Positions 3,843-56,920 of a stretch of 64,000 nucleotides of DNA are shown one piece after another. Numbering within the stretch: the stretch's first letter is position 1; every line of letters starts with the position of its first letter. Below the pieces are notes generated by a model. It was not told the DNA's origin and searched no databases. It worked only from the letters and a program-made list of their open reading frames with translations. The stretch lies in the NCBI GenBank assembly GCA_965203475.1, contig OZ241890.1:606926-670925 (forward strand), read 5' to 3'. A program made the position numbers and the translations under genes. The stretch is from Gammaproteobacteria bacterium. Its GTDB lineage: Bacteria > Pseudomonadota > Gammaproteobacteria > UBA4575.

Positions 3843-3919
3843 GCGCCTGTAGCTCAGCTGGATAGAGTACCTGGCTTCGAACCAGGTGGTCGGGGGTTCG
3901 AATCCCTCCGGGCGCGCCA
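3843..3919 (+). tRNA. tRNA-Arg (anticodon TCG)
   Basis: Full cloverleaf: acceptor GCGCCTG/CGGGCGC, D-arm GCTCAGCTGGATAGAGT, anticodon arm CCTGG-CTTCGAA-CCAGG, T-arm GGGGGTTCGAATCCCTCC, discriminator G and CCA. Close to E. coli tRNA-Arg(ACG) apart from the anticodon. Confidence 0.85.
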
Positions 3920-7179: not shown

Positions 7180-8403
7180 GTGATGAAACGCTGGGATCGT
7201 GCGATTGTATTTATCGATATGGATGCTTTTTTTGCAAGCATTGAGCAGCATGATCAGCCCGAATTACGTGGACAACCTATTGGTATTACAAATGGATTAA
7301 CGGGCACATGTTTTATTACTTGTTCTTATGAAGCTAGAGCGTATGGCATTAAAACGGCAACAAGAATTAAAAAAGCAAAAGAATTGTGTTCTGATGTAAT
7401 TCAAGTTCCAGCTCGACCTTATCGCTATGCAGAAGTTTCCACGAATATTATGTCTGCACTGCAAAACATTACGCCGGATATTGAAGTTTTTTCTGTAGAT
7501 GAAGCTTTTTTAGACATTACTCATTGCCAGGGCATTTATGGAGATCCTGCAAAAATGGGCACTCTTATTAAAAGTACAGTGTATGAGGCAGGAGGAGTAT
7601 CCTGCAGTATTGGCATTAGTGGGGACAAAACCACTGCCAAAGTTGCAGCCAAACAAGATAAACCTGATGGATGTGTAGTGGTTCCACCTTGGGAAGCTAG
7701 AAATTTTCTTAAAAATAAACCGGTGACTGATTTATGTGGTGTTGCAAAGGGTATTGGTCGATATCTAGGGGACCGTGGTGTTGAATTATGTGGCGACATG
7801 CAGCATTTACCCATCGGTGAACTGGGACATCGTTTTGGAAACCCAGGGCGGCGTATTTGGTATATGGCACAGGGTTTGGATCCTGAACCTTTACAACCGA
7901 ATGTTGCAGCACCTAAGTCAATTGGTCATGGCAAAATTATGCCGCCCAACACCAAGCAACATTCTGTATTGAAAATATATTTGCATCATATGGCAGAAAA
8001 AGTAGGTGCGCGATTGCGCAAACATCATTTTGAAGCACAGCACTTTTTTATTGGTTTTCGAACCGAACAGGGCTGGCTAGCCAAAAAAATGAAAACAGTG
8101 GATCCAACAGATGATAGTCAGCAGATTAAGGCATTGGCCAATGATTTGCTCAATCACTACTGGCAGGGGCAGGGATGTTTTCAGGTACAGATTACTGCAC
8201 TTGATCCGAAAGACCAGGGTAATCAACTGTCATTATTTCGACAGAAAGACATTAAACGTGAGCAAATTAACCAGACCATGGATCGTATTAACGAGCGCTA
8301 TGGAGAATTTACTCTGGCCCCTGCTGTGTTATTGAATCGCTCGAACATGCCCAATGTGATTGCACCTGCATGGAAACCAGCAGGTCATAGAAAGACAGTA
8401 TGA
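7180..8403 (+). CDS. Y-family DNA polymerase (DinB/Pol IV-like, catalytic residues intact)
   Basis: IDMDAFFASIE and SVDEAFLDIT catalytic motifs and a KVAAKQDKPDG motif. Lies 15 nt downstream of lexA. Confidence 0.8.
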   Translation: MMKRWDRAIVFIDMDAFFASIEQHDQPELRGQPIGITNGLTGTCFITCSYEARAYGIKTATRIKKAKELCSDVIQVPARPYRYAEVSTNIMSALQNITPDIEVFSVDEAFLDITHCQGIYGDPAKMGTLIKSTVYEAGGVSCSIGISGDKTTAKVAAKQDKPDGCVVVPPWEARNFLKNKPVTDLCGVAKGIGRYLGDRGVELCGDMQHLPIGELGHRFGNPGRRIWYMAQGLDPEPLQPNVAAPKSIGHGKIMPPNTKQHSVLKIYLHHMAEKVGARLRKHHFEAQHFFIGFRTEQGWLAKKMKTVDPTDDSQQIKALANDLLNHYWQGQGCFQVQITALDPKDQGNQLSLFRQKDIKREQINQTMDRINERYGEFTLAPAVLLNRSNMPNVIAPAWKPAGHRKTV

Positions 8404-8448
8404 GCACATGATCGAAATTCAAAGTAAGCCAGGACATCGCAAGACGGT

Positions 8449-8895
8449 ATGAGTAGTGGTGTGTTGTATACAATCGAGGAACAAGATAGAAGAATCTATT
8501 TTCACAATCCACTTGCCACACTTCCAGTCATTACCAAGCAAGACAATATCATCATGATGCCTTGGGGCAGGCGAAAAAAACAAAAAGGTATGCTGCCATT
8601 AGGAGGCTGGGCCAGATTAGAGGGGATATATAAAGGCCAGTGGGATCGGTGGTTGCCAAAATCTGTAAAAATTCCAGTCAAATCATTTATGGAAAAATCA
8701 CATGATGGTTCGAATCACTGGTTTGATTTAGTAAAAGGGCAATGTTTACAAGGATTGGTTGCACGTAACAAATATGAGCAACGAGTATATGTTGTTACCA
8801 TAGAACCAGAGCAAGAGTATGCGTGGTATTACCGATGGCCTCGTATTATAAATAAAGGTTATAAAAATAATTTAGAAGTTTTCGATGTAAATTAG
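8449..8895 (+). CDS. Hypothetical protein (148 aa), third gene of the lexA-polymerase cassette
   Basis: ORF 45 nt after the polymerase on the same strand. No recognisable domain. Confidence 0.45.
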   Translation: MSSGVLYTIEEQDRRIYFHNPLATLPVITKQDNIIMMPWGRRKKQKGMLPLGGWARLEGIYKGQWDRWLPKSVKIPVKSFMEKSHDGSNHWFDLVKGQCLQGLVARNKYEQRVYVVTIEPEQEYAWYYRWPRIINKGYKNNLEVFDVN

Positions 8896-10117: not shown

Positions 10118-10320
10118 AATTACAAGTAAATAAGAATAAAATTCTAGCTATTTTTATTCATTTAGACGTTTAATAATTTTATATATCTTTTTGAAAGATA
10201 AAGCATTATCCTAACCATACTAATTTAAATTGTGCACTTATCACCTTTACACTAACGTCTAGCCAGATCTGGGTTCACACACCTTATTTAATGTAAATAC
10301 CATGTAGCATCCAAGCAAAA

Positions 10321-10563
10321 TTGAGGCATGTCATGAGCTATTTTGGTGAAAGTACACTCGAGCACAAGGTGCTCTTATATATGGAAGGCATTAAAAACAG
10401 TAATAATCTAAAGGATTACGAAGTCATCCGTATGATGAATAAAGTAGTGGAATATTATCGAGATAATCTTGTGTACGAATTCAACGAAGATGAAGCAAAT
10501 ACTATTTTGAAAGAAGCCAGTGATACTAATATCAAGGATACGAAAGATTCATCTACTTCATAA
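10321..10563 (+). CDS. Hypothetical protein (80 aa)
   Basis: ORF only. Confidence 0.35.
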   Translation: MRHVMSYFGESTLEHKVLLYMEGIKNSNNLKDYEVIRMMNKVVEYYRDNLVYEFNEDEANTILKEASDTNIKDTKDSSTS

Positions 10564-10595
10564 ATACTAGTATTTATTAAATAATTTCCTTCAAA

Positions 10596-11072
10596 TTAAA
10601 TTATTTTCTGTGATTTTTTTATGTTAGTCACAGCGCCTGCTGTGGCAAGAATAGCCATTCGTGCCAAACTGTATTTCGGCAACAGAGGAGATAAGGCTAC
10701 TCCAAACACAGCACCAGCAATAGCTTGATGAAGTTGTTTGCTTTCTACTTTTAGGCCATGAACAAAGCGTACAAAATGTTCGCAATTACATGTAAATAGG
10801 TTATATCGCAAACTAGAATTTATATAAGATCGAGCAAATTGAATCACTTCTAGTGCAGGCCTCTTGCCGCGAATAGGACTTATTTCCACTCTGCGGTTTC
10901 CAATCACCTTGTCCCAGGGTTCTTCAAGTACACCACACATGCGAAAAGATAGTGAGATTACGTTGGGCGCCCCATTGCTATATCGATCACTGACAATTGC
11001 ATAATGAATGTAAAAAGGATAGTAGATGGCGATTACCATTCCTGGTTTTGGGTAATGGTTAGATAAATTCAA
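10596..11072 (-). CDS. LRAT/PLAAT (H-Ras-like suppressor) family thiol acyltransferase/phospholipase homolog with C-terminal hydrophobic anchor
   Basis: NCEHFV active-site Cys motif, an upstream His in YIHYAIV, and a C-terminal hydrophobic segment AIAGAVFGVALSPLL...AILATAGAV, as in eukaryotic PLAAT proteins. Confidence 0.6.
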   Translation of the reverse strand: MNLSNHYPKPGMVIAIYYPFYIHYAIVSDRYSNGAPNVISLSFRMCGVLEEPWDKVIGNRRVEISPIRGKRPALEVIQFARSYINSSLRYNLFTCNCEHFVRFVHGLKVESKQLHQAIAGAVFGVALSPLLPKYSLARMAILATAGAVTNIKKSQKII

Positions 11073-11294
11073 TTTTAATAATTCACTGATTCTATTTTAA
11101 ATTGGATTGCCTGACTTATTTAAAGTTCCTAAGGGCTGTTTGGATTTTACGATTTCAATCCATTGGAAATTAGTTTCTGATAAAACTATACACACCTTCT
11201 ATTCTAAAAAATACTCCGTTCATCTTTGTTGCTAAATGAGAAAGTTGTTTGAATTGTTATAGTTTTTGCGGTTGTTTTCATTTGGCGCTTTTCC

Positions 11295-12146
11295 ATGTTT
11301 TATTTCAAATTCTATAAAACTTTGATCTTTTTCATATGTATGTTGCTGCTTATGTTTCAGGTACATGCAGAGGAAGATATTTTGTCTAAAATTTGGAATG
11401 CAGAAGATACTAAATTAGTTGAGAAATGCGTTTCAAATATTAATCAATCTGCTAATGAGAAGTTAGGCGCAGCAGAGCGACTATATCAAACAAGCATGTG
11501 CTACTTTTGTGCAGGTTGTGATTTTGAAAATGATCAAGGCGTCATCTTTAGTGGTCGTAGTATACATTCAGGAAATGAGCTGCCAAACTCTCAATCTTAT
11601 GAAATAGCCTATAAATTAATGAATCAAGCAGTTGAGCTTGGTAGTGTCAAAGCATTTTACGGCTTAGCTGCAATTCAATTTGTAAGTGAAACGGGGCAAG
11701 GAAAAATTTCAAAAACTGAGCTATCGGCAGAGAAGACAGAAGAATATAGGCAGAAAGCATTACAAAACGATTTTAGTGAAGAAAAATTAAATAGTGATTT
11801 AGAAGCATTGGTGCAGTCAATTCATTACAAGCAGCATGAGCAAGATTATTCACGATCTATACATGTTAATTTGCTAAATGCGGCTAGATTCGGACATTTA
11901 TCTTCACAATTTGCATTGGGTGAAATTTATTCACGAGGCATTGGAGTTGCGCCAGACAATATTGAAGCATATGCATGGACCGCTGCAGCAGTTGCACAAA
12001 ACCCTCCTTTTGGAAGTACTAGACGTGATAAATTGGGGGAGAATTTAGACTATATGGAACTCAATGAGGCTGATTTGCTAGCAGAAACCTATATGAAGGA
12101 ACACACAGATATATTTGATCGTGCTTCAGTAACTGTCATGCGTTAG
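11295..12146 (+). CDS. Secreted Sel1-like repeat (SLR/TPR-like) protein
   Basis: Signal peptide MFYFKFYKTLIFFICMLLLMFQVHA. Sel1-type repeats, e.g. FALGEIYSRGIGVAPDNIEAYAWTAAAVAQN. Confidence 0.65.
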   Translation: MFYFKFYKTLIFFICMLLLMFQVHAEEDILSKIWNAEDTKLVEKCVSNINQSANEKLGAAERLYQTSMCYFCAGCDFENDQGVIFSGRSIHSGNELPNSQSYEIAYKLMNQAVELGSVKAFYGLAAIQFVSETGQGKISKTELSAEKTEEYRQKALQNDFSEEKLNSDLEALVQSIHYKQHEQDYSRSIHVNLLNAARFGHLSSQFALGEIYSRGIGVAPDNIEAYAWTAAAVAQNPPFGSTRRDKLGENLDYMELNEADLLAETYMKEHTDIFDRASVTVMR

Positions 12147-46213: not shown

Positions 46214-47719
46214 TTGACTAAGCAGGAAATTACATCTTTACCCTCGATTGTGGTTGGGAAAAGTGATGCCGTACAAACACTTTTCCTCAAGCGTGCCAAT
46301 CGACATGGGTTAGTTGCGGGGGCTACGGGCACAGGCAAAACGGTTACTTTGCAAATTTTGGCAGAAGGTTTTTCTCAGGTCGGTGTACCGGTGTTTGCAG
46401 CTGATATCAAAGGTGATTTAAGTGGTATTAGCCAAGCCATAACCGCCAAGCCCAAACTTGTGGAGCGAGCTGCTAAGACTGGTGTTGAGAACTACTCTCC
46501 ACGTGGATTTCCGACCCTATTTTGGGACATCTTTGGTAAGCAAGGACATCCAGTAAGGACCACGATTTCGGAAATGGGCCCTCTCTTGTTGTCGAGGTTA
46601 CTAGAACTCAATGATACGCAAGAAGGTGTGCTGAATATTGCTTTTAAGATGGCCGATGATGAAGGGCTACTATTGTTAGATTTCAAGGATTTGCGAGCAA
46701 TTCTTAATCATGTAGGCGAGAATTCATCTGCGATTACGGTGGATTATGGGAATGTAAGTAAGCAGTCGATAGGTGCGATTCAACGAAGATTGTTAGTGCT
46801 TGAACAGCAGGGCGGCAAGAAATTTTTTGGTGAACCGGCATTACAGCTCAATGACTTAATGCGTACCAACACAGATGGAATGGGTTATATCAATTTATTT
46901 GCTGCAGATGAGTTGATGCAAAATCCAAGGTTGTATTCGACATTTTTGCTATGGCTATTATCCGAGCTATTTGAGGAGCTTCCTGAGGTTGGCGATCCGG
47001 AAAAACCAAAATTGGTGTTTTTCTTTGATGAAGCGCATTTACTATTTAAAGATGCTCCGAAAGCACTCATCCAGAAAGTGGAGCAAGTAGTGCGGTTGAT
47101 TCGTTCAAAAGGAGTTGGGGTGTATTTTGTGACTCAGAATCCTGTGGATATTCCTGATGAGATTTTGGGACAGTTGGGGAATCGTATTCAGCATGCATTA
47201 CGGGCGTATACTCCACGCGATAAAAAAGCTGTAAAAGTTGCAGCAACCACCTTCAGAGCCAATCCAGACCTAAATACAGTTCAGGTGATTACAGAACTTG
47301 GAGTGGGGGAAGCATTGGTTTCAGTGCTTGATCCTGAAGGGGTGCCTACCATTGTTCAACAAACAAAAATTCGACCTCCAGAATCTCGTATGGGGCCTGC
47401 AACGAAGTCGGAACGAAAAATCATATTTGAAAAAAGTCCTATTAAAGACGTATACGATAAAGCAATAGATCGGGAAAGTGCATCAGAATTACTCAAACAG
47501 CGTGCAGAACAAGCAGCGAAACACGCCAAAGAAATGGAAAAAGAACGAGAATATAAAGCAGCAAAATCCAAGAAAAAATCTCGTCAATCAACGCGTAGAA
47601 AAACTCGTCGCGAATCAACAACACAAACTGTGATAAAAAGTGCAACAAAAATTGCAACTTCAAGAATGGGTCAAGCAATTATTCGTGGCATTATGGGTTC
47701 AATATTTAAAGGAAAATAA
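46214..47719 (+). CDS. HerA-like / DUF853 (YjgR family) P-loop NTPase
   Basis: Walker A GATGTGKT. Walker B FFFDEAH. Lys/Arg-rich C-terminal tail. Confidence 0.75.
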   Translation: MTKQEITSLPSIVVGKSDAVQTLFLKRANRHGLVAGATGTGKTVTLQILAEGFSQVGVPVFAADIKGDLSGISQAITAKPKLVERAAKTGVENYSPRGFPTLFWDIFGKQGHPVRTTISEMGPLLLSRLLELNDTQEGVLNIAFKMADDEGLLLLDFKDLRAILNHVGENSSAITVDYGNVSKQSIGAIQRRLLVLEQQGGKKFFGEPALQLNDLMRTNTDGMGYINLFAADELMQNPRLYSTFLLWLLSELFEELPEVGDPEKPKLVFFFDEAHLLFKDAPKALIQKVEQVVRLIRSKGVGVYFVTQNPVDIPDEILGQLGNRIQHALRAYTPRDKKAVKVAATTFRANPDLNTVQVITELGVGEALVSVLDPEGVPTIVQQTKIRPPESRMGPATKSERKIIFEKSPIKDVYDKAIDRESASELLKQRAEQAAKHAKEMEKEREYKAAKSKKKSRQSTRRKTRRESTTQTVIKSATKIATSRMGQAIIRGIMGSIFKGK

Positions 47720-48109: not shown

Positions 48110-49267
48110 TTAACAACCAGCAAGACCATTAATTAAATTTTCCATCCCGATTTCAATATCTTGATCAGATAGAGCTCCATAGGAAATTCGTAAGTAACAA
48201 CCTGTGCTTATGCCGAATGCAGATCCCGGTATGGTTGCAACTTTGTGTTTTTTGATAAGAGCTTTAGCAAGTTGTATGTCATTCAGTGCTTTATCTATAT
48301 TTAATAATGTATAAAAAGCACCTTCTGAAACTGGTTTTTGTTTGAGACAGTTTAGCTTTTCAAGCATATTTAATACCAGGTTTCGTTTCTTCTGCAACTT
48401 CGCTCTTTTCTCTTGTAAAAAATTTTGGCCTGTTTCTAATGCACCAATTGCAGCATATTGAGAAATAATCGGCGGCGATATTAATATTGTGTCCTGGATT
48501 TTTTTCACGGCATCAAATAAATGTATAGGAATTACCATGTAACCAATTCGCCATCCGGCAAACCCATATCCTTTCGAAAATGAATAAAGAGAAATCGTAT
48601 GCTCTGTATTCTCTTTATTAGAAGCAACAGAGTAATGAAGATTTTTGTCGTAATAAAAATCTTCATATGCTTCATCACTAATGTGATAAATATTATGTTT
48701 TTTGCATAACAAATTTACAGCGTCGAGTTCTGTTTTTGTATAAACAGCTCCACTTGGATTATTAGGGCTAATAGTGACGATTGCTTTAGTGCGTTCTGTA
48801 ATTGCTGCTTCAAGTTTATCTATATACAAATGGAAGTCTTTACCTGTAGCAACCAATACCGCTTTGCAGCGTTCCATGGCTAATGACATTTCATGATTAA
48901 AGTAATAGGGGATCGGAAGTATTACCTCATCGCTCGGATCTGTGATTGCAAGAATTGCAGTGTTAAAGGCCATATTAGATCCGGCTGTTACAACAATAAT
49001 GTTATTGTCATTAATTACTACGTTATTTTGAGTCTCAAGTTTTTTAATCAAAGCTTGCTGTAGTTCTGGAATACCTTCTACAGGACCATATCGGTTAATT
49101 GATTCGTCATTTATGTGATTTTGCACCTTAGTAAAGGCTTCGGGAGGAGGCCCGTAATAAGCAACTCCTTGACCAAAAGAAATGGTGCCAGGGTTTTCTC
49201 GAGAGAGTGCGCCTATTAATGGAATAATAGGTGCTTGCACAGCTTCCATGCGCTGACTACTTTTCAT
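48110..49267 (-). CDS. Class I/II PLP-dependent aminotransferase
   Basis: SFSKGYGFAGWRIGY PLP-lysine motif. Confidence 0.8.
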   Translation of the reverse strand: MKSSQRMEAVQAPIIPLIGALSRENPGTISFGQGVAYYGPPPEAFTKVQNHINDESINRYGPVEGIPELQQALIKKLETQNNVVINDNNIIVVTAGSNMAFNTAILAITDPSDEVILPIPYYFNHEMSLAMERCKAVLVATGKDFHLYIDKLEAAITERTKAIVTISPNNPSGAVYTKTELDAVNLLCKKHNIYHISDEAYEDFYYDKNLHYSVASNKENTEHTISLYSFSKGYGFAGWRIGYMVIPIHLFDAVKKIQDTILISPPIISQYAAIGALETGQNFLQEKRAKLQKKRNLVLNMLEKLNCLKQKPVSEGAFYTLLNIDKALNDIQLAKALIKKHKVATIPGSAFGISTGCYLRISYGALSDQDIEIGMENLINGLAGC

Positions 49268-49279
49268 AATCTAGTTAAA

Positions 49280-51520
49280 TTAATTTGTAATGCGACGATA
49301 AATGTCAGAAACTTTATACGGAAGCTTGTCTACTTTATCAACGACGGCAAAATTTACTGCGCCATACATATGTTTTAAGTAATCCATCGCTTCTTGGTCA
49401 ATCGTAATGCAGAACGGATGAATTCCTAAAAATTTTGCCTCAATTAATGCGCGTCGAGTATCTTCAATTCCATAGGGGCCACGATAACCGTCCCTATCGT
49501 CTGGTCTGCCGTCCGATAGTGTTATCAACAGCTTCGTGCGGGCTTCTATTTGGTTGAGCAGCATCGTCAAATGTCGAATTGCGGCACCCATGCGGGTGTA
49601 ATCTTGCGGCTCAATACCATTGATTCGTGCTTTTATTTCATCGTTGTATGTTTCTTTAAAATTCTTAATCTTGTATAGCTCGCAGCTTTCGTGGGTAGCG
49701 CCTGAAAATCCATAGATTGCATATCGATCACCTAAGGTTTCTAAAGCTTCACACAATAATATGAGTGATACTCGTTCCATTTCGTTGACCCAGCCCGTAG
49801 TAGAGCCACTCATGTCAATCATAAACATTACAGCAATGTTGCGATCCATTTTTCGAGATTTTATGAATAAATTTTGCGAGGCTTCTAAACCAATTTGTGT
49901 ATCGCTATATGCTTCGATGACAGCATCTAGATCTATATCTTCACCATAGGGTTGGTGTTTTAGTCTTTTATCATCTTCTCGTAAAGCCTCAAAGGTTCGG
50001 TGTAAATGTTTTAATAAAGATCGATGTTTGAATAATGTTTCATCTACAAAATTGTTATATACAGGCTTTATGTCGTGCTCTCTTAGATGACACCATTCTT
50101 TACGATATCTTTGCCTAGAATGATCCCACTCATCGTATAAATACACTTTATCTTTATCGATTGTGTTTGAATCGTCTAGGTTAGGTTGATCAGTAGTATA
50201 CTCAGTTTCAATTTCTTCGTTTTGAATTTCTGTTATTAAGTAAGGATCTGGAATTTCTCCTAGGTCCTGTAAAATAGACTGTAAAAGTTGTTGAATATCC
50301 TCTGGAGGGTCAATTGCTTGTTCGTTGAAGTTTAATTGGATTGAAAAACCTTCTGGTGAATCCTCGTCTTCAATTTCTTCAATTGAAAATCTTTCACTGT
50401 CTTCTAATTCAGTATTTGTGTATACCACATTGGTATCTAATTCTTGTTGTAGTTCTGTCAGTCGTTGCTGAAGTTGTTCTTGCTCTTTTTCGATTCTTGA
50501 TTGAATTGTCTTCCAAGTTCTTCTCGGCTCTAAGGTTCCTTGATAAATTTTATCTTCAGGAAACAAATTTTCTTTGTAAACAGATTCTAAAAAAAACATT
50601 GTGTCTTTAACGGTTGCATCTTTTTGTTGCAATACCTCATGAGCGCGTTTCCAGTTTTTTGATAATGAGTCTGTGTTTAGTGTCCCACTAATATTTTTCA
50701 TAACACGTGCTACTCCGGGTAACTCACGTGCAATGCATGCATCTAAGCGAATTGTTTCAAGTTTATGAAATATAGATTGTGCACGTTCAGAATCTTTGAA
50801 GGTTTTAACTAAAGCATCTACATTCATTCGCCATGTTCCAAACCAAGTTTGCGCCCATTGGTGAACTGTCATTGCTTTATATAAAGTAAAATTTTCATCC
50901 TGATTGTTGTAGGTTGATATAAATTCAGGAAGTCGAATAGATTCTGTATCACAAAAATGTTGATCACTAATTTCAATATTTAGACGACGCCCGCTAAGTC
51001 CAATGACGAAGCTTTCAAGAATTCTTGAGATGTCATTAATGGATACACTCGCAGGGGCATGAGATATGGACGCAACATATTCTTTAACCTTGTGTAGCTG
51101 TTCTATAGCACTATTTAAGCCATTTTCTTGGTGATTTTTTAATAACTTAGAAATCCAGTCATCCCATTGACTTTCGTCTAGGGTTTGTAAACCTACATGG
51201 CCTAAATGACAAAAATTAAATCCGAGCTCAATATCGGTGTTGCATAATTGTTCTACTGTGGATAAAAAACGATCTTGGTCCACTTTAGGAAATTCCGCTA
51301 AATTCTTTGCAGGCTCAAATACTCCTCGTTGTGCGGAAAGAACAGGCTCAACAAGTAATTCCATACGTAATTGCAATTCGCGAATGCCCATTCCACCATA
51401 AGAAGCACTGGTAGTTAATCCTTGTCGTTCCAAGGATTTTATAAATCCACCTTCTTCACTGTAAGCACGTATTTCTACTTTTTCACGCTTCTTTTTAGGT
51501 TTCTTTTTTTTCCAAAACAT
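49280..51520 (-). CDS. NorD/CbbO-like large vWA-domain protein (polybasic N-terminus)
   Basis: C-terminal MIDMSGST (DxSxS MIDAS). DGRPDD motif. About 750 aa, as for CbbO/NorD. Confidence 0.6.
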   Translation of the reverse strand: MFWKKKKPKKKREKVEIRAYSEEGGFIKSLERQGLTTSASYGGMGIRELQLRMELLVEPVLSAQRGVFEPAKNLAEFPKVDQDRFLSTVEQLCNTDIELGFNFCHLGHVGLQTLDESQWDDWISKLLKNHQENGLNSAIEQLHKVKEYVASISHAPASVSINDISRILESFVIGLSGRRLNIEISDQHFCDTESIRLPEFISTYNNQDENFTLYKAMTVHQWAQTWFGTWRMNVDALVKTFKDSERAQSIFHKLETIRLDACIARELPGVARVMKNISGTLNTDSLSKNWKRAHEVLQQKDATVKDTMFFLESVYKENLFPEDKIYQGTLEPRRTWKTIQSRIEKEQEQLQQRLTELQQELDTNVVYTNTELEDSERFSIEEIEDEDSPEGFSIQLNFNEQAIDPPEDIQQLLQSILQDLGEIPDPYLITEIQNEEIETEYTTDQPNLDDSNTIDKDKVYLYDEWDHSRQRYRKEWCHLREHDIKPVYNNFVDETLFKHRSLLKHLHRTFEALREDDKRLKHQPYGEDIDLDAVIEAYSDTQIGLEASQNLFIKSRKMDRNIAVMFMIDMSGSTTGWVNEMERVSLILLCEALETLGDRYAIYGFSGATHESCELYKIKNFKETYNDEIKARINGIEPQDYTRMGAAIRHLTMLLNQIEARTKLLITLSDGRPDDRDGYRGPYGIEDTRRALIEAKFLGIHPFCITIDQEAMDYLKHMYGAVNFAVVDKVDKLPYKVSDIYRRITN

Positions 51521-51525
51521 AATAC

Positions 51526-52257
51526 TTAGGCAGCTTTTTTTAGTAGTATGTTTTTAGCTTGATTAATCTTCGCAGCAAGGTAATCATTGCCGCCACGGTC
51601 TGGATGTAGTTTTTGCATTAATCTTCGATGTGCATCAATAATTTCTTCTTCACTTACATTCTTGTCCAGTCCTAAGATGTTATACGCTTCATCAATCGAC
51701 ATGGTAGCCCTCGAATTGTCTGCTTGTTGAGATTGATTTGCTTCATCAACATAGTCACGCCAAGTATCTTGATGAGTTCTATCAAGATAGGCTTCTAAGA
51801 GTTGTTTTGAGTCCGAATCTAATTGCGAAAGTTCTGCATGTAGTTTCATTAACCCCGATAGAGACATATCTGATAAGTTTTTCCCTATGAATTTTCCTTT
51901 TTTTACTTTTCCATGCATATGGCCGGTGGCATGTTCTAGGCTCATAGATAGATATTCAGTTTCTACATTTGAAGTTTGATTTGTTGAAGCTCCAGACTGC
52001 ATGTTGCGAAATTGTGTAAATAACCTGCCAAACATTGGGATATAACTCATTAATCCAAGTATGCGTCGAAACACAGGAACAATTGCAGCAAGCGCTGCAA
52101 ACAACCAATGAGCTCTTCCAGTAGCTACTAATCCAATAAGAATAATTGCTACAAAAATTGCAATGGCTTGAAATTGTTTTTGTTTTGGTTGCTTACTTAC
52201 CCAACGTATGAAAATCAATACACCTATGATGCCTATGATGAGTAAAATTTGCTGCAT
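51526..52257 (-). CDS. Membrane-anchored J-domain protein (DjlA-like)
   Basis: Two N-terminal TM helices. C-terminal J domain AYNILGL...LHPDRGG. Confidence 0.65.
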   Translation of the reverse strand: MQQILLIIGIIGVLIFIRWVSKQPKQKQFQAIAIFVAIILIGLVATGRAHWLFAALAAIVPVFRRILGLMSYIPMFGRLFTQFRNMQSGASTNQTSNVETEYLSMSLEHATGHMHGKVKKGKFIGKNLSDMSLSGLMKLHAELSQLDSDSKQLLEAYLDRTHQDTWRDYVDEANQSQQADNSRATMSIDEAYNILGLDKNVSEEEIIDAHRRLMQKLHPDRGGNDYLAAKINQAKNILLKKAA

Positions 52258-52970
52258 TAGGATGATTGATCCGTTAGTTGATTGATGATCTCATTTTTTA
52301 AATTGGCATTAGTTTTACTATGAGCTTTGAGTGCTTTTACGCCTCCCACTGCGTACACAGCAACCGCTTTTAATAAAGCGCGTAATTGCTCGGCACTGGA
52401 CTGATCAAATTTACAATATGCGCCTTTCGTAATCTTCGCCATTTGGCGAAATGTACGTTCAGCCATAACATCTTGGCCTTCGTGGAAAATAAATATGGGG
52501 ATGCCATGTAATGCCAGTTTTCCTGCTTGGCCTAGCAATTTGTCTGCTAACTCTTCCATACAATCGCCAACAAATACCAGCGCATTAATTTTATGTTGTT
52601 TAGCTTCGAGTAGTGTATGGTCTAAAATTCTTGAAATTTGAGTTTGTCCGGCTTTACATCGCACTATAGACATTACATTTTGCAATTGTGATGCATTTTG
52701 AGTCCAATCATGCGCTTGAAATTCGCCATACCCATGGTAATAGCATAATTGAATGAGTAACTTTCCTAGTGCAGCTGTTTCGGTGAACATATCTGCCTGA
52801 ATTTGGCATGCCATGTCCCAACAGGGTTCACGACTAGCCGTTGCATCCATTGCAAATATCAATCTTCCACAAGATTCCGTTTGTATGGGAACTGGTGATT
52901 TTGCTACTTGGTCCAGAAACTCTGCTACAGATGAATTTTGTGTAGAAATGCTTTTCTTATTACTGCCCAT
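52257..52970 (-). CDS. Small vWA-domain protein
   Basis: LIFAMDATASREP MIDAS-like motif. Its stop overlaps the start of the J-domain gene (TAATG). Confidence 0.55.
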   Translation of the reverse strand: MGSNKKSISTQNSSVAEFLDQVAKSPVPIQTESCGRLIFAMDATASREPCWDMACQIQADMFTETAALGKLLIQLCYYHGYGEFQAHDWTQNASQLQNVMSIVRCKAGQTQISRILDHTLLEAKQHKINALVFVGDCMEELADKLLGQAGKLALHGIPIFIFHEGQDVMAERTFRQMAKITKGAYCKFDQSSAEQLRALLKAVAVYAVGGVKALKAHSKTNANLKNEIINQLTDQSS

Positions 52971-53069
52971 TGAAAACTAAGAATTGACTTACAAATTTTT
53001 TATAGTTTAACCCATATTGGACGTTTGATCGTTTAACCATATAAACCTAGCAAAATAAAAGGATTAACC

Positions 53070-55451: not shown

Positions 55452-55982
55452 CTAATTAGATTTTCTATTGATAAATTCTTCTAAGGCTTCGATTTTAACG
55501 GGCCCTGGATTATGTCCAACTAATTGCCCTTCAGGATTAAACATTAAATAGGTGGGAGTGCCACGCAACGGTTCATCAGTTGATGATTGATAATTAAATG
55601 CGACTACTGATAGTTCACCGACTAAGTTTTTAAATGACATTGGCATTTCATCGATATGTTGCGTAATGCTTTCCAGATTTGAATAACCATCGAGTGAAAC
55701 ACCAATAACTTTTGCAACAGTACTTTTATGTTTATCATGAAATTCAGACATAATGGGATATTCGCGAACACAAATACCACAGGTGCTGGACCAAAGCATT
55801 ACAAGAGTCCATTTCCCTTCTTCAAAGTGTTGGAAGAGGGTTGTAAATTTGCCATCCAATGTCCTCACTTCTGTCCAGTTTGATGCAATACCAATACTAG
55901 GCAGTGACAGTATTAAAGTTATTGCTATAAATAACTTAGTTGCATGAAGCATATGTACAAATTTTAAAACCATGCTTATCAT
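55452..55982 (-). CDS. Thioredoxin-fold thiol-disulfide oxidoreductase (TlpA/ResA-like), membrane-anchored
   Basis: WSSTCGIC (CxxC). Signal-anchor MISMVLKFVHMLHATKLFIAITLIL. Start trimmed from 56141 to avoid overlap with the divergent gene. Confidence 0.65.
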   Translation of the reverse strand: MISMVLKFVHMLHATKLFIAITLILSLPSIGIASNWTEVRTLDGKFTTLFQHFEEGKWTLVMLWSSTCGICVREYPIMSEFHDKHKSTVAKVIGVSLDGYSNLESITQHIDEMPMSFKNLVGELSVVAFNYQSSTDEPLRGTPTYLMFNPEGQLVGHNPGPVKIEALEEFINRKSN

Positions 55983-56062
55983 CCTTGAATCTGAGAACTT
56001 TTTGTAGGCTTTAATAATACCTAGTTCAGACATCCATTCCCAATTAAAAGTGAGAATAATTA

Positions 56063-56920
56063 ATGAAAAATAGTATTCAATGCGTTTTGGACGAAGTTGG
56101 ATCACTGGCTTTCCCAGGAATTTATGACACCTTGTCTGCAAAAATTGCGGAACAAGTGGGGTTTCCCATGGCCTTTATTTCTGGGTATTCATTGGCTGCC
56201 GCCACCATTGGTGAGCCAGACTTTGGCTTGCTCACACAAACAGAAGTTGTAGAACGCGCTCGAGCAATATGCACAAGTGTTTCAATACCAATCATAGTAG
56301 ATGCAGATACTGGCTATGGAAATCCTTTAAATGTGTACCGGACCGTTGAGCAATTAATTGATGCCGGAGCTAAAGGTTGTTTTTTAGAAGATCAAGTTTG
56401 GCCAAAAAAATGTGGTCATATGCGAAATAAAAAAGTAATCGAGCGTGAAGAGTATCTAAATAAGATTAAGGCTGCTGTAGATGCAAGAGGCGATGCTGAT
56501 TTTTTTATTGTTGCGCGAACAGATGCAGAAGCTGTTGTAGGGCTCGAAGAAGCAATTACACGTGTTAAGCAAGCTAGGGAATTAGGGGCTGATGCCAGTT
56601 TTGTAGAAGCTCCTGGTTCGCTTGAACAAATGAAGAAAATAGGATTCGAAGCACCTAAACCTATTGTTGCAAATATGATAGAAGGTGGAAAAACACCAGT
56701 ATTACAAAAACAAGAATTGTCCGAATTAGGATTCCAGTTAATTTTATATCCTTTAACTGGGTTATTTGCAGCAGGTAAAACAATTCAAAAATTTTATTCA
56801 ACATTACATAATAATGGAACTACATTGGGCATGGAGGCCGATCTTTTAAACTTTACTGAGTTTAATGAATTAATAGGGGTAGAAGAAAAGTATCAATTAT
56901 CAGAAAAATATGAGGCTTAG
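56063..56920 (+). CDS. Isocitrate lyase/PEP mutase superfamily enzyme (2-methylisocitrate lyase / oxaloacetate decarboxylase-like)
   Basis: Motifs YDTLSAKIAEQVGF, IVDADTGYGN and EDQVWPKKCGH. Confidence 0.75.
   Translation: MKNSIQCVLDEVGSLAFPGIYDTLSAKIAEQVGFPMAFISGYSLAAATIGEPDFGLLTQTEVVERARAICTSVSIPIIVDADTGYGNPLNVYRTVEQLIDAGAKGCFLEDQVWPKKCGHMRNKKVIEREEYLNKIKAAVDARGDADFFIVARTDAEAVVGLEEAITRVKQARELGADASFVEAPGSLEQMKKIGFEAPKPIVANMIEGGKTPVLQKQELSELGFQLILYPLTGLFAAGKTIQKFYSTLHNNGTTLGMEADLLNFTEFNELIGVEEKYQLSEKYEA

What the first reader, a model, noticed from the sequence alone, without database searches (positions are those of the whole stretch)
49280..52970. Translationally coupled three-gene operon: small vWA protein, membrane J-domain (DjlA-like) protein, and NorD/CbbO-like 746-aa vWA protein, with no MoxR ATPase partner
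The stop/start overlap is TAATG between genes 1 and 2, with a 5-nt gap between genes 2 and 3. NorD/CbbO-type vWA proteins normally work with a MoxR-class AAA+ ATPase (NorQ/CbbQ), which is absent here. Instead the module contains a J-domain protein (HPD motif present) that would recruit DnaK. This suggests an Hsp70-driven, vWA-mediated remodelling or activation module of unknown client. The large protein starts with a polybasic MFWKKKKPKKKREK tail encoded over an A/T homopolymer (T8 on the plus strand at about 51500-51512), a possible slip-strand switch.
Basis: partly seen in the sequence, partly recalled or inferred. Interest (0 to 1): 0.55.

Follow-up and report, generated by a model that had tools for sequence, protein, structure and literature searches.

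The report
vWA–J-protein pair plus orphan NorD-like adaptor
The three genes are real and tightly packed, but they are two older units joined in one bacterial lineage: a widespread, uncharacterised pair (a small vWA protein plus a membrane-anchored Tim14/Pam18-type J-protein) and a NorD/CbbO-type adaptor that still carries everything needed to dock on a MoxR ATPase that is not encoded nearby.

Summary
Three minus-strand ORFs (237, 243 and 746 aa) show the stated TAATG overlap, the 5-nt gap, an HPD motif and an A8 run. A fourth gene, an aminotransferase, follows 12 nt later.

- **g1+g2 is the ancient unit.** It is adjacent in 78 of 80 sampled loci from at least 568 Alpha-/Gammaproteobacterial species, all but six of them lacking g3.
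- **g1 is a true vWA fold** with an invariant D-x-T-x-S…T…D site.
- **g2's J-domain is closest to mitochondrial Tim14/Pam18,** not DjlA. Its central domain is lost exactly where g1 is lost.
- **g3 is a genuine NorD/CbbO-family adaptor** (E 4e-43 to solved NorD). Of 69 informative relative loci, 46 have cbbQ/norQ just upstream.
- **The window's clade has no cbbQ/norQ nearby,** with the J-protein in that slot (16 of 16 loci). g3 still keeps the pore "finger" and C-terminal tail under strong constraint.
- **J+g3 arose only once,** inside a block of conserved synteny.

Most likely g3 uses an ATPase encoded elsewhere. An Hsp70-for-MoxR swap remains a roughly 20% possibility. The slip-strand idea is unsupported.

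The parts
52257..52970 (-). g1: a 237-aa cytoplasmic stand-alone vWA protein. Its MIDAS-like site is D42-A-T44-A-S46 ... T110 ... D136.
   Evidence: ORF. No Pfam or NCBIfam hit. The AF2 model (pLDDT 79.7, pTM 0.78) matches vWA domains at probability 1.0. The MIDAS-like residues are invariant in 16 diverse homologs. No hydrophobic segment is present.
51526..52257 (-). g2: a 243-aa inner-membrane J-protein with N-terminal TM helices, a conserved central domain and a C-terminal Tim14/Pam18-type J-domain.
   Evidence: ORF. Pfam DnaJ E 3.4e-9 and Pam16 E 6.6e-5. The family profile's best PDB hit is Tim14 (2guz_A, E 7.5e-16) against E. coli DnaJ at 1.4e-8. Family alignment A3.
52060..52251 (-). g2 residues 3-66: two to three hydrophobic transmembrane helices. 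Basic loops predict a cytoplasmic C-terminus.
   Evidence: Kyte-Doolittle windows above 1.6 at residues 1-23, 27-52 and 51-70. Positive-inside reasoning is inference.
51760..51972 (-). g2 residues 96-166: the conserved central domain (S.VET..L.M.LDHDSG.M.G.VL.G.F.G..L..L...LLEAYLDR.H..W). It is the inferred g1-docking domain.
   Evidence: Conserved across Alpha- and Gammaproteobacteria. The motif is present in 47/49 long and 0/67 short J-proteins. It is deleted in frame exactly where g1 is absent.
51529..51699 (-). g2 residues 187-243: the J-domain. HPD is at residues 218-220 (window 51598-51606).
   Evidence: HPD is kept in 116/116 family members examined.
49280..51520 (-). g3: a 746-aa NorD/CbbO-family vWA adaptor.
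51389..51520 (-). g3 residues 1-44: a disordered N-terminal extension (MFW, then a polybasic stretch, then SAxYGGMG). It occurs only in the CbbQ-less clades.
   Evidence: pLDDT 32-36. F2/W3 and the GGxG motif are conserved. The motif is in 18/39 CbbQ-less loci and 0/46 CbbQ-adjacent loci.
51504..51511 (-). The A8 run (T8 on the plus strand) in g3 codons 4-6.
   Evidence: Relatives have A4-A8 at non-homologous positions. The window has 6 A/T runs of at least 8 nt against 8.2 expected.
50426..51388 (-). g3 residues 45-365: the helical N-terminal domain, presumed to determine client specificity.
   Evidence: AF2 pLDDT 80-90. The profile gives only a faint, non-significant co-linear motif match to the NorD N-terminal domain (0.2 bits, i-E 1.4e+03). 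No solved structural counterpart was found.
50147..50425 (-). g3 residues 366-458: an acidic linker that is poorly conserved and partly disordered.
   Evidence: The architecture parallels the NorD linker (PMC13036017).
49838..49975 (-). g3 residues 516-561: the vWA 'finger', equivalent to PdNorD 403-448, which inserts into the NorQ pore.
   Evidence: Gap-free alignment to PdNorD. 54% of columns are at least 90% conserved in the CbbQ-less clade, against 37% in the CbbQ-adjacent clade. Role taken from PMC13036017 and PMC9976466.
49316..49837 (-). g3 residues 562-735: the vWA core with a canonical MIDAS (D569-x-S571-x-S573, T642, D670).
   Evidence: Invariant in 21 homologs. Pfam VWA_2. Structural matches.
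49283..49315 (-). g3 residues 736-746: the C-terminal tail (KLPYKVSDIYRRITN). It ends in the same register as the NorD residues that bind the NorQ post-sensor-1 loop.
   Evidence: 73% of columns are at least 90% conserved, and all three clades end ...IYRR[IL]Tx. Role taken from PMC13036017.
48110..49267 (-). g4: a PLP-dependent class I/II aminotransferase, co-directional and starting 12 nt after g3. It follows g3 in every assessable clade member.
   Evidence: Pfam Aminotran_1_2 E 7e-68. NCBIfam NF004621, 549 bits against a cut-off of 498. Clade conservation.
52971..53069 (.). A 99-bp divergent intergenic region shared with the DUF4139 gene, and the likely operon promoter region.
   Evidence: No convincing terminator lies between g1 and g4 on the minus strand, and the promoter scan is not enriched. 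Promoter assignment is inference.

Best explanation
The locus is a four-gene, co-directional, probably co-transcribed operon (g1-g2-g3-g4). It joins two older, separable units in one gammaproteobacterial lineage.

**Unit A (g1+g2).** This is an ancient, self-contained pair.
- g2 sits in the inner membrane with a cytoplasmic Tim14/Pam18-type J-domain.
- g1 is a soluble vWA protein with a MIDAS-like metal site.
- Inferred mechanism: g1 docks on g2's conserved central domain. Its MIDAS face holds an acidic residue of a still-unknown client at the membrane. The adjacent J-domain then triggers ATP hydrolysis in DnaK so that Hsp70 clamps and remodels that client.

**Unit B (g3, with g4 behind it).** g3 is a genuine NorD/CbbO-family adaptor.
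- It keeps the pore-inserting finger, the C-terminal docking tail and a full MIDAS.
- It therefore most likely still plugs into a CbbQ/NorQ-type AAA+ hexamer encoded elsewhere in the genome.
- Its divergent N-terminal domain presumably selects an unknown client that is neither Rubisco nor NOR.

**Shown versus inferred.** Shown: folds, motifs, homologies, gene-order statistics and co-loss patterns. Inferred: the physical g1-g2 contact, DnaK recruitment, and the existence of an unlinked ATPase.
For: **g1+g2 is the conserved unit.**
- The g1 family occurs in at least 568 species.
- g2 is directly downstream in 78/80 loci. The median gap is 4 nt and 66/80 gaps are at most 30 nt.
- No other neighbour recurs in more than 22 loci, and those neighbours are unrelated housekeeping genes.
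- g3 is present in only 6 of those 80 loci, all of them the window's closest relatives.

**g1 and g2 properties.**
- g1 is a vWA fold with invariant D-x-T-x-S/T/D residues.
- g2's J-domain is Tim14-type, with HPD kept in 116/116 members.

**Central domain and g1 co-vary.**
- The motif is in 47/49 long and 0/67 short J-proteins.
- g1 is absent in all six short-J loci examined.

**g3 is NorD/CbbO-type.**

**cbbQ/norQ linkage in relatives.**
- 46/69 informative relative loci have an AAA_5+CbbQ_C gene upstream, 30 of them within 400 bp.
- 23/69 lack it within the fetched upstream flank (at least 1.5 kb, up to about 8 kb), so unlinked partners are common.

**Docking elements are still constrained.** The finger and C-tail are at least as conserved in the CbbQ-less clade as in the CbbQ-adjacent clade. 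The finger is described as a hallmark of AAA+-docking vWA domains (PMC9976466; PMC13036017).

**The J-g3 link looks incidental.**
- J+g3 adjacency is found only in this one clade.
- The whole ~15-kb neighbourhood is syntenic there.
- Solitary short membrane J-proteins exist elsewhere.
Against: - No CbbQ/NorQ gene was actually found for this clade. It is absent from the 64-kb window and from 16 clade loci with 8-10 kb flanks. Whole genomes could not be scanned.
- The J-protein occupies exactly the slot that cbbQ occupies in sister clades. It stays intact and tightly coupled to g3 (gaps 2-28 nt) in 16/16 clade loci, including those that lost g1.
- The CbbQ-less clades share a new N-terminal extension that is absent from all 46 CbbQ-adjacent homologs. 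This hints at a changed partner.
- The g1-g2 contact and DnaK recruitment are untested.
- The co-loss pattern may reflect few independent events.
Confidence: 0.5

Rival explanations
1. One reading: in this clade the membrane J-protein, and through it DnaK, has replaced CbbQ/NorQ as the motor for the NorD/CbbO-type adaptor g3. This would make an Hsp70-driven vWA remodelling module, with g1 as an optional accessory.
For: - No cbbQ/norQ in the window or in 16 clade loci.
- The J gene sits in the cbbQ slot directly upstream of g3 in 16/16 loci, with 2-28 nt gaps.
- The short J-protein stays intact, with HPD in 67/67, after loss of g1.
- The CbbQ-less clades gained an FW-polybasic-YGGMG N-terminal extension that is absent from 46/46 CbbQ-adjacent relatives.
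Against: - The finger and C-terminal tail have AAA+ ring docking as their only known role, and they are not relaxed.
- A marine clade with the same N-terminal extension has no J-protein or g1 within 8 kb.
- J+g3 arose only once, inside a block of conserved synteny.
- Short membrane J-proteins exist alone elsewhere.
- 23/69 relatives also lack an adjacent cbbQ, and none of those outside the clade has a J-protein nearby.
Confidence: 0.2
2. g3 works without any ATPase, as a static MIDAS scaffold or adaptor. It might be membrane-associated through its polybasic N-terminus, and could act on or with the downstream aminotransferase.
For: - No ATPase gene is nearby.
- g4 follows g3 in all assessable clade loci at 12-42 nt (195 nt in L163).
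- The N-terminus is polybasic.
Against: - Strong conservation of the finger and C-tail is hard to explain without a ring partner.
- NorD could not even be expressed without NorQ (PMC9976466).
- g4 is absent next to g3 relatives outside the clade.
Confidence: 0.12
3. The locus is an anti-phage or conflict system of the vWA-chaperone kind, such as the MoxR-vWA ternary systems.
For: vWA plus chaperone-cofactor themes occur in such systems (PMC7159879).
Against: - No PADLOC hit for any of the four proteins.
- No effector domains are present.
- The context is stable, housekeeping-type and syntenic.
- The pair is near-universal across large clades rather than patchy.
Confidence: 0.03
4. The A8 tract at the start of g3 is a slipped-strand phase-variation switch.
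For: An A8 run lies in codons 4-6. One distant relative also has A8.
Against: - Relatives have A4-A8 at non-homologous codons. The tract simply encodes a Lys-rich tail in a 37% GC genome.
- The window has 6 A/T runs of at least 8 nt against 8.2 expected by composition.
- A second 8-nt run lies inside g3 itself, at 50589.
- No read data are available.
Confidence: 0.03

Closest known systems
NorQ/NorD (FeB insertion into cNOR) and CbbQ/CbbO (Rubisco activase): MoxR AAA+ with a vWA adaptor
   Same: - The g3 C-terminal 285 aa aligns with solved NorD (E 4e-43) with the same finger length and C-terminal register.
- It has a full MIDAS motif.
- Its architecture is an N-terminal domain, a disordered linker and a vWA domain.
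- Its size is close to CbbO.
- Relatives at 41-47% identity sit next to AAA_5+CbbQ_C genes.
   Different: - No cbbQ/norQ within the 64-kb window, nor within 8-10 kb in 16 clade loci.
- The N-terminal domain has no detectable similarity to the NorD N-terminal domain beyond one short motif.
- A clade-specific FW-polybasic-YGGMG extension is present.
- No NOR or Rubisco genes are among the annotated neighbours.
- A J-protein gene occupies the upstream slot.
Mitochondrial Tim14/Pam18 (with Tim16/Pam16), and the alphaproteobacterial homolog reported as 'TimB' (Clements et al. 2009, recalled from memory; the paper was not readable here)
   Same: - Membrane-anchored, with a C-terminal J-domain carrying HPD.
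- The best solved match of the g2 family profile is Tim14 (2guz_A, E 7.5e-16).
- 13/18 family members hit the Pfam Pam16 model.
   Different: - g2 has 2-3 TM helices plus a ~70-aa conserved central domain.
- It has an obligate vWA neighbour (g1) with no known mitochondrial counterpart.
- Orthology to 'TimB' was not tested.
DjlA (E. coli membrane-anchored class C J-protein)
   Same: An N-terminal membrane anchor and a C-terminal J-domain that would recruit DnaK to the inner membrane.
   Different: - It scores 36.8 bits on the NCBIfam DjlA equivalog against a cut-off of 162.
- There is no DjlA-type central-domain match.
- The J-domain is Tim14-type.
Dedicated J-protein operons such as AtcJ in Shewanella (PMC6715715)
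   Same: A short specialised J-protein, used as an analogue for a J-protein encoded with the partner proteins it serves. That operon arrangement for AtcJ is recalled from memory and was not checked here.
   Different: The partners are different, and no vWA or MIDAS protein is involved.
Rea1/Midasin MIDAS domain
   Different: It is eukaryotic, is fused to its own AAA+ ring, and functions in ribosome assembly.

Membership tests
NorD/CbbO-type MoxR-associated vWA adaptors | C-terminal vWA domain with a DxSxS...T...D MIDAS motif | tested here: met
   D569-M-S571-G-S573, T642 and D670 are invariant in 21 homologs. Pfam VWA_2. NorD VWA is the top structural hit.
NorD/CbbO-type MoxR-associated vWA adaptors | A vWA 'finger' insertion that enters the AAA+ pore | tested here: met
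   g3 516-561 aligns without gaps to PdNorD 403-448, and 54% of its columns are at least 90% conserved. The AF2 model is low-confidence there (pLDDT below 50), so the shape itself is not confirmed.
NorD/CbbO-type MoxR-associated vWA adaptors | A conserved extreme C-terminus that docks on the post-sensor-1 loop | tested here: met
   The protein ends two residues after the position aligned to PdNorD L636, as NorD does. The ...SDIYRR[IL]Tx tail is shared by all three clades.
NorD/CbbO-type MoxR-associated vWA adaptors | A partner CbbQ/NorQ (AAA_5+CbbQ_C) gene encoded adjacent | tested here: not met
   None in the window or in 16 clade loci. It is present upstream in 46/69 relative loci. Presence elsewhere in the genome could not be tested.
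NorD/CbbO-type MoxR-associated vWA adaptors | N-terminal domain homologous to that of NorD or CbbO | tested here: inconclusive
   The profile gives only a short, non-significant co-linear motif (D.E...LP...F....N..LY; 0.2 bits, i-E 1.4e+03). The N-terminal domain gave no match among the top PDB hits. The AFDB library was unavailable. These N-terminal domains are reported to be non-conserved between systems (PMC9976466).
NorD/CbbO-type MoxR-associated vWA adaptors | The known client (cNOR or Rubisco) encoded nearby | tested here: not met
   The annotated neighbours are an aminotransferase, DUF4440, a HerA-like ATPase, a Tsp protease, DUF4139, EamA, an AhpC-like protein and a PEP mutase. The rest of the window was not fully annotated.
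DjlA | A match to the DjlA equivalog model above its cut-off | tested here: not met
   NF006948 scores 36.8 bits against a cut-off of 162, covering the J-domain region only.
Tim14/Pam18-type membrane J-proteins | A membrane anchor plus a C-terminal J-domain with HPD that is closest to Tim14 | tested here: met
   Hydrophobic helices at residues 1-70. HPD at 218-220. 2guz_A at E 7.5e-16 against DnaJ at 1.4e-8. The Pam16 Pfam hit is below its cut-off for the window protein (23.4 against 30.3).
Tim14/Pam18-type membrane J-proteins | Stimulation of the Hsp70 ATPase | not testable with these tools
   This needs biochemistry. No dnaK is in the window.
vWA/MIDAS domain proteins (g1) | A vWA Rossmann-like fold with metal-site residues | tested here: met
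   The AF2 model (pTM 0.78) gives 189 PDB matches at E<=1e-3, and the 50 best listed are all vWA domains. D42/T44/S46/T110/D136 are invariant. The first motif is DxTxS rather than DxSxS, and there is no Pfam VWA hit.
Known anti-phage defence systems (PADLOC) | A match to any defence-system protein model | tested here: not met
   No hits at E<=0.01 for g1-g4.

The most novel reading that the evidence does not exclude
In one gammaproteobacterial lineage, a CbbO/NorD-type MIDAS adaptor has been re-wired from its MoxR AAA+ motor to the Hsp70 system. A minimal membrane-anchored Tim14/Pam18-type J-protein, encoded in the former cbbQ slot, would recruit DnaK to the adaptor. The adaptor's newly acquired FW-polybasic-YGGMG N-terminal peptide might mediate this.

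Separately, the ancestral partner of this J-protein family across Alpha- and Gammaproteobacteria would be a small vWA protein. That would make vWA-plus-J-protein a general Hsp70-based counterpart of the MoxR-vWA chaperone pair.
Probability: 0.2. Interest if true: 0.8.

Novelty: new variant of a known kind. Interest (0 to 1): 0.55.

Why it matters
**The g1-g2 pair.**
- It is a near-universally linked, translationally coupled module in hundreds of Alpha- and Gammaproteobacterial species.
- I could find no description of it. None of the eight full-text literature searches run returned a paper describing it, and neither did the bacterial Hsp70 and J-protein surveys that were read.
- It carries no Pfam, NCBIfam or PADLOC assignment for the vWA partner.
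- If g1 is a MIDAS adaptor that feeds clients to DnaK through a membrane J-protein, it would extend the vWA-plus-chaperone-ATPase logic, so far known for MoxR AAA+ proteins, to Hsp70.
- Because the J-domain is of the Tim14/Pam18 type, it also bears on what the bacterial ancestor of the mitochondrial import-motor J-protein did.

**g3.**
- It defines a NorD/CbbO subfamily that is unlinked from cbbQ and carries a new N-terminal extension.
- It occurs in small-genome, MAG-only Gammaproteobacteria, with no NOR or Rubisco genes among its annotated neighbours. That implies a new client for this class of metallo-enzyme or assembly chaperones.

**Testable predictions.** The natural variants (long J with g1, short J without g1) give ready-made, testable predictions.

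Tried and rejected
- **Slip-strand switch.** Rejected. The run length and position are not conserved, and runs are not enriched.
- **DjlA membership.** Rejected.
- **Defence system.** Rejected.
- **HerA-like ATPase (46214-47719) as substitute motor.** Considered and dropped. It lies on the opposite strand, is separated by two genes, is part of the general synteny, and is not a MoxR.
- **Client from sister-clade neighbours.** These gave only heterogeneous contexts: Hdr-like CCG/Fer4/FAD genes, ATP sulfurylase and ribonucleotide reductase.
- **Exact-sequence look-ups.** The window protein P0001 and the Microbulbifer short J-protein P0512 are not on record.
- **Literature.**
  - No paper describing a vWA and J-protein pair turned up.
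  - Clements et al. 2009 is not held.
  - Kaur et al. 2020 describe other vWA/HSP70 conflict systems, not this one.
- **Finding a clade cbbQ through the 'longest contig' fingerprint.** Judged infeasible because only the top 120 hits are listed.

Full report
**1. Observation**

One search lists three minus-strand ORFs at 52257-52970 (g1, 237 aa), 51526-52257 (g2, 243 aa) and 49280-51520 (g3, 746 aa).

The sequence shows the junctions:
- The g1 stop and g2 start share one base (TAATG).
- A 5-nt spacer (gtatt) lies between g2 and g3.
- g3 starts ATG TTT TGG AAA AAA AAG, an A8 run seen as T8 on the plus strand at 51504-51511.

A fourth co-directional gene, a PLP aminotransferase (g4, 48110-49267), starts 12 nt after g3.

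The domain evidence is:
- Pfam finds a DnaJ domain in g2 and VWA_2 in g3, both above their cut-offs, and nothing in g1.
- HPD is at g2 residues 218-220.
- No terminator-like site separates the four genes, apart from one weak intragenic match.

**2. What g1 and g2 are**

g1:
- Its AlphaFold model (pLDDT 79.7, pTM 0.78) matches Rpn10, vWF-A, integrin-I and TFIIH-p44 vWA domains at probability 1.0.
- D42-x-T44-x-S46, T110 and D136 are invariant in 16 homologs at 50-72% identity. This is a MIDAS-like site with Thr in place of the first Ser.
- It has no hydrophobic segment, so it is taken to be cytoplasmic.

g2:
- It has 2-3 N-terminal hydrophobic helices.
- It has a ~70-aa central domain conserved from Alpha- to Gammaproteobacteria.
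- It has a C-terminal J-domain.
- It fails the DjlA model, at 36.8 bits against a cut-off of 162.
- The family profile's best solved match is mitochondrial Tim14/Pam18 (2guz_A, E 7.5e-16), far ahead of E. coli DnaJ at 1.4e-8.
- 13 of 18 family members hit the Pfam Pam16 model.

**3. The conserved unit is the pair, not the trio**

They include:
- Gammaproteobacteria: Arenicellales, Chromatiaceae, Sedimenticola and Acidiferrobacterales.
- Alphaproteobacteria: Rhodospirillales, Skermanella, Nisaea, Kiloniellales and Defluviicoccus.

In the 80 best loci:
- A g2 homolog lies directly downstream in 78. The two exceptions are contig ends, and one locus has it 3.9 kb away.
- The median gap is 4 nt, and 66 of 80 gaps are at most 30 nt.
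- No other gene recurs in more than 22 loci. Those that do are unrelated housekeeping genes such as MipZ and UDP-glucose dehydrogenase.
- g3 and g4 occur in only six of the 80 loci, all of them the window's closest relatives.

**4. What g3 is**

Sequence and structure:
- Residues 461-744 align with solved NorD at E 4e-43, or 4e-72 with a family profile.
- The MIDAS motif is canonical and invariant.

The NorQD structures show that NorD binds the NorQ hexamer in two ways:
- A finger (PdNorD 403-448) enters the pore.
- The last residues bind the post-sensor-1 loop. Deleting the last two residues abolishes co-purification.

The finger is reported for MoxR-associated vWA domains and is missing from vWA domains that do not use AAA+ motors. 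g3 aligns through the finger without gaps and ends in the same register as NorD.

The N-terminal domain (residues 45-365, pLDDT 80-90) shows only one short, non-significant co-linear motif match to NorD. It has no solved counterpart. This is expected if it determines the client.

**5. The MoxR question**

An exhaustive search shows full-length g3 relatives at 34-47% identity beyond the window's clade. I fetched 80 such loci from metagenomes. Of 69 loci with enough upstream sequence:
- 46 carry a ~270-aa gene upstream on the same strand, 30 of them within 400 bp.
- Eight of these genes were tested and all are AAA_5+CbbQ_C.

The window (64 kb) and every locus of its clade have none, by tblastn and by a 46-sequence profile with a 46/46 positive control.

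So "no adjacent MoxR" is true and is a derived state. However, 23 of 69 relatives also lack it within the fetched upstream flank (at least 1.5 kb, up to about 8 kb), so unlinking is common. From memory, Pseudomonas encodes nirQ apart from norD, which would be a precedent.

The docking elements are not relaxed in the CbbQ-less clade:

| Element | Columns at least 90% conserved, CbbQ-less clade | Same measure, CbbQ-adjacent clade |
|---|---|---|
| Finger | 54% | 37% |
| C-terminal tail | 73% | 64% |

All three clades share the same ...SDIYRR[IL]Tx end.

**6.

In the window's clade the J-protein gene is directly upstream of g3 in 16 of 16 loci, with gaps of 2-28 nt. The loci are the window, L001-L006, L083-L086, L120 and L163-L165. 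This is exactly the slot that cbbQ occupies in sister clades.

A large sub-clade has lost g1, and its J-protein is a 158-167-aa TM+J form:
- It has lost the central domain in frame but keeps HPD (L085, L163-L165).
- Among 116 J-proteins examined, HPD is present in 67/67 short and 49/49 long forms.
- The central-domain motif is in 0/67 short and 47/49 long forms.
- By contig fingerprint, 17 g3 contigs carry the short form and 9 the long form. None carries both the short form and g1.

Both CbbQ-less clades also share a ~45-aa disordered N-terminal extension (FW, a polybasic stretch, then SAxYGGMG). It is absent from all 46 CbbQ-adjacent homologs.

**7. Evidence against a functional J-g3 link**

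- J+g3 adjacency occurs in no other lineage among 80 relative loci.
- The marine CbbQ-less clade with the same N-terminal extension has neither a J-protein nor g1 within 8 kb.
- The whole ~15-kb neighbourhood is syntenic across the window's clade, so adjacency there does not exceed background.
- Short membrane J-proteins exist as solitary genes in other Gammaproteobacteria. The short form therefore does not need g3 to be retained.

**8. Synthesis**

- The co-variation of g1 with the g2 central domain is the best available evidence that g1 docks on that domain. Both are present in 78 loci, and both are absent in six loci from at least three lineages. Unit A then works as a membrane-tethered vWA/J-protein device that aims DnaK at a MIDAS-bound client. 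This is inference.
- g3 most likely remains a MoxR-dependent adaptor whose ATPase is unlinked. The Hsp70-swap model is a live minority alternative, at about 0.2.
- The homopolymer is not a credible switch. Its length and position vary among relatives (A4-A8), it encodes a Lys-rich tail, and such runs are not enriched in the window, at 6 observed against 8.2 expected.
- No defence-system model matches any of the four proteins.

**9. Novelty**

- I found no description of a vWA and J-protein pair in the searchable literature.
- Clements et al. 2009, which I recall reporting an alphaproteobacterial Tim14 homolog ('TimB'), could not be read.
- I rate the locus a new variant of known kinds: dedicated J-protein modules, and NorD/CbbO adaptors.
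- Interest is moderate, and would be higher if the pair's mechanism or the motor swap were confirmed.

Noticed in passing
window 51389-51520 (g3 residues 1-44); L090-L100 and L113: Both CbbQ-less clades of the g3 family share a disordered N-terminal extension (FW, a basic stretch, then SAxYGGMGxRE). It is absent from all 46 CbbQ-adjacent homologs. Its function is unknown.
   Followed up: partly
L085 7434-7916; L163, L164 and L165 at 8001-8504: A large sub-clade has a 158-167-aa J-protein with the TM helices and J-domain intact and HPD kept, but the central domain deleted in frame. g1 is missing, and g3 and g4 still follow.
   Followed up: yes
L166 8001-8501; L167 8001-8486: Solitary short membrane Tim14-like J-proteins (40-44% identical) occur in other Gammaproteobacteria with neither g1 nor g3 nearby. 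A Microbulbifer marinus member is named.
   Followed up: partly
L120 1-2980: This locus has a full-length g2, with its central domain, directly before g3. No g1 lies in the 2.9 kb upstream, which is an exception to the co-variation of g1 and the central domain.
   Followed up: partly
L103-L149 (e.g. L118 968-2502, L105 3897-5240); L104 2180-3388; L106 8572-10731: The sister CbbQ and CbbO-like pairs sit near Hdr-like genes (CCG, 4Fe-4S and FAD oxidoreductase), ATP sulfurylase or ribonucleotide reductase. No single client is evident.
   Followed up: no
L092, L093, L096 and L098 at about 10200-11800: In the marine orphan clade, the g3-like gene is followed by a conserved 224-aa protein with no Pfam hit, a flavodoxin/FMN-reductase-like protein and a ~116-aa ORF.
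   Followed up: no
window 46214-47719 (+): A HerA-like (HerA_C/DUF87) P-loop ATPase is the only Walker-A ORF near the operon. It is kept in the same neighbourhood in L004, L084, L085 and L163-L165.
   Followed up: partly
window 50589-50596: A second 8-nt homopolymer lies inside g3. It is A8 on the plus strand, so T8 on the coding strand, encoding Phe-Phe-Leu.
   Followed up: no
L163 4880-7775: The DUF4139 gene that is divergent from the operon is tandemly duplicated in this relative (484 and 473 aa).
   Followed up: no
window 55452-56141 (-) and 56063-56920 (+): The AhpC/TSA-like ORF, with a TTG start, overlaps the start of the PEP-mutase-like gene by 79 nt. Its listed start is probably over-extended.
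   Followed up: no
window 3843-3916 (+): This single tRNA gene is the only Rfam match in the window at gathering threshold.
   Followed up: no
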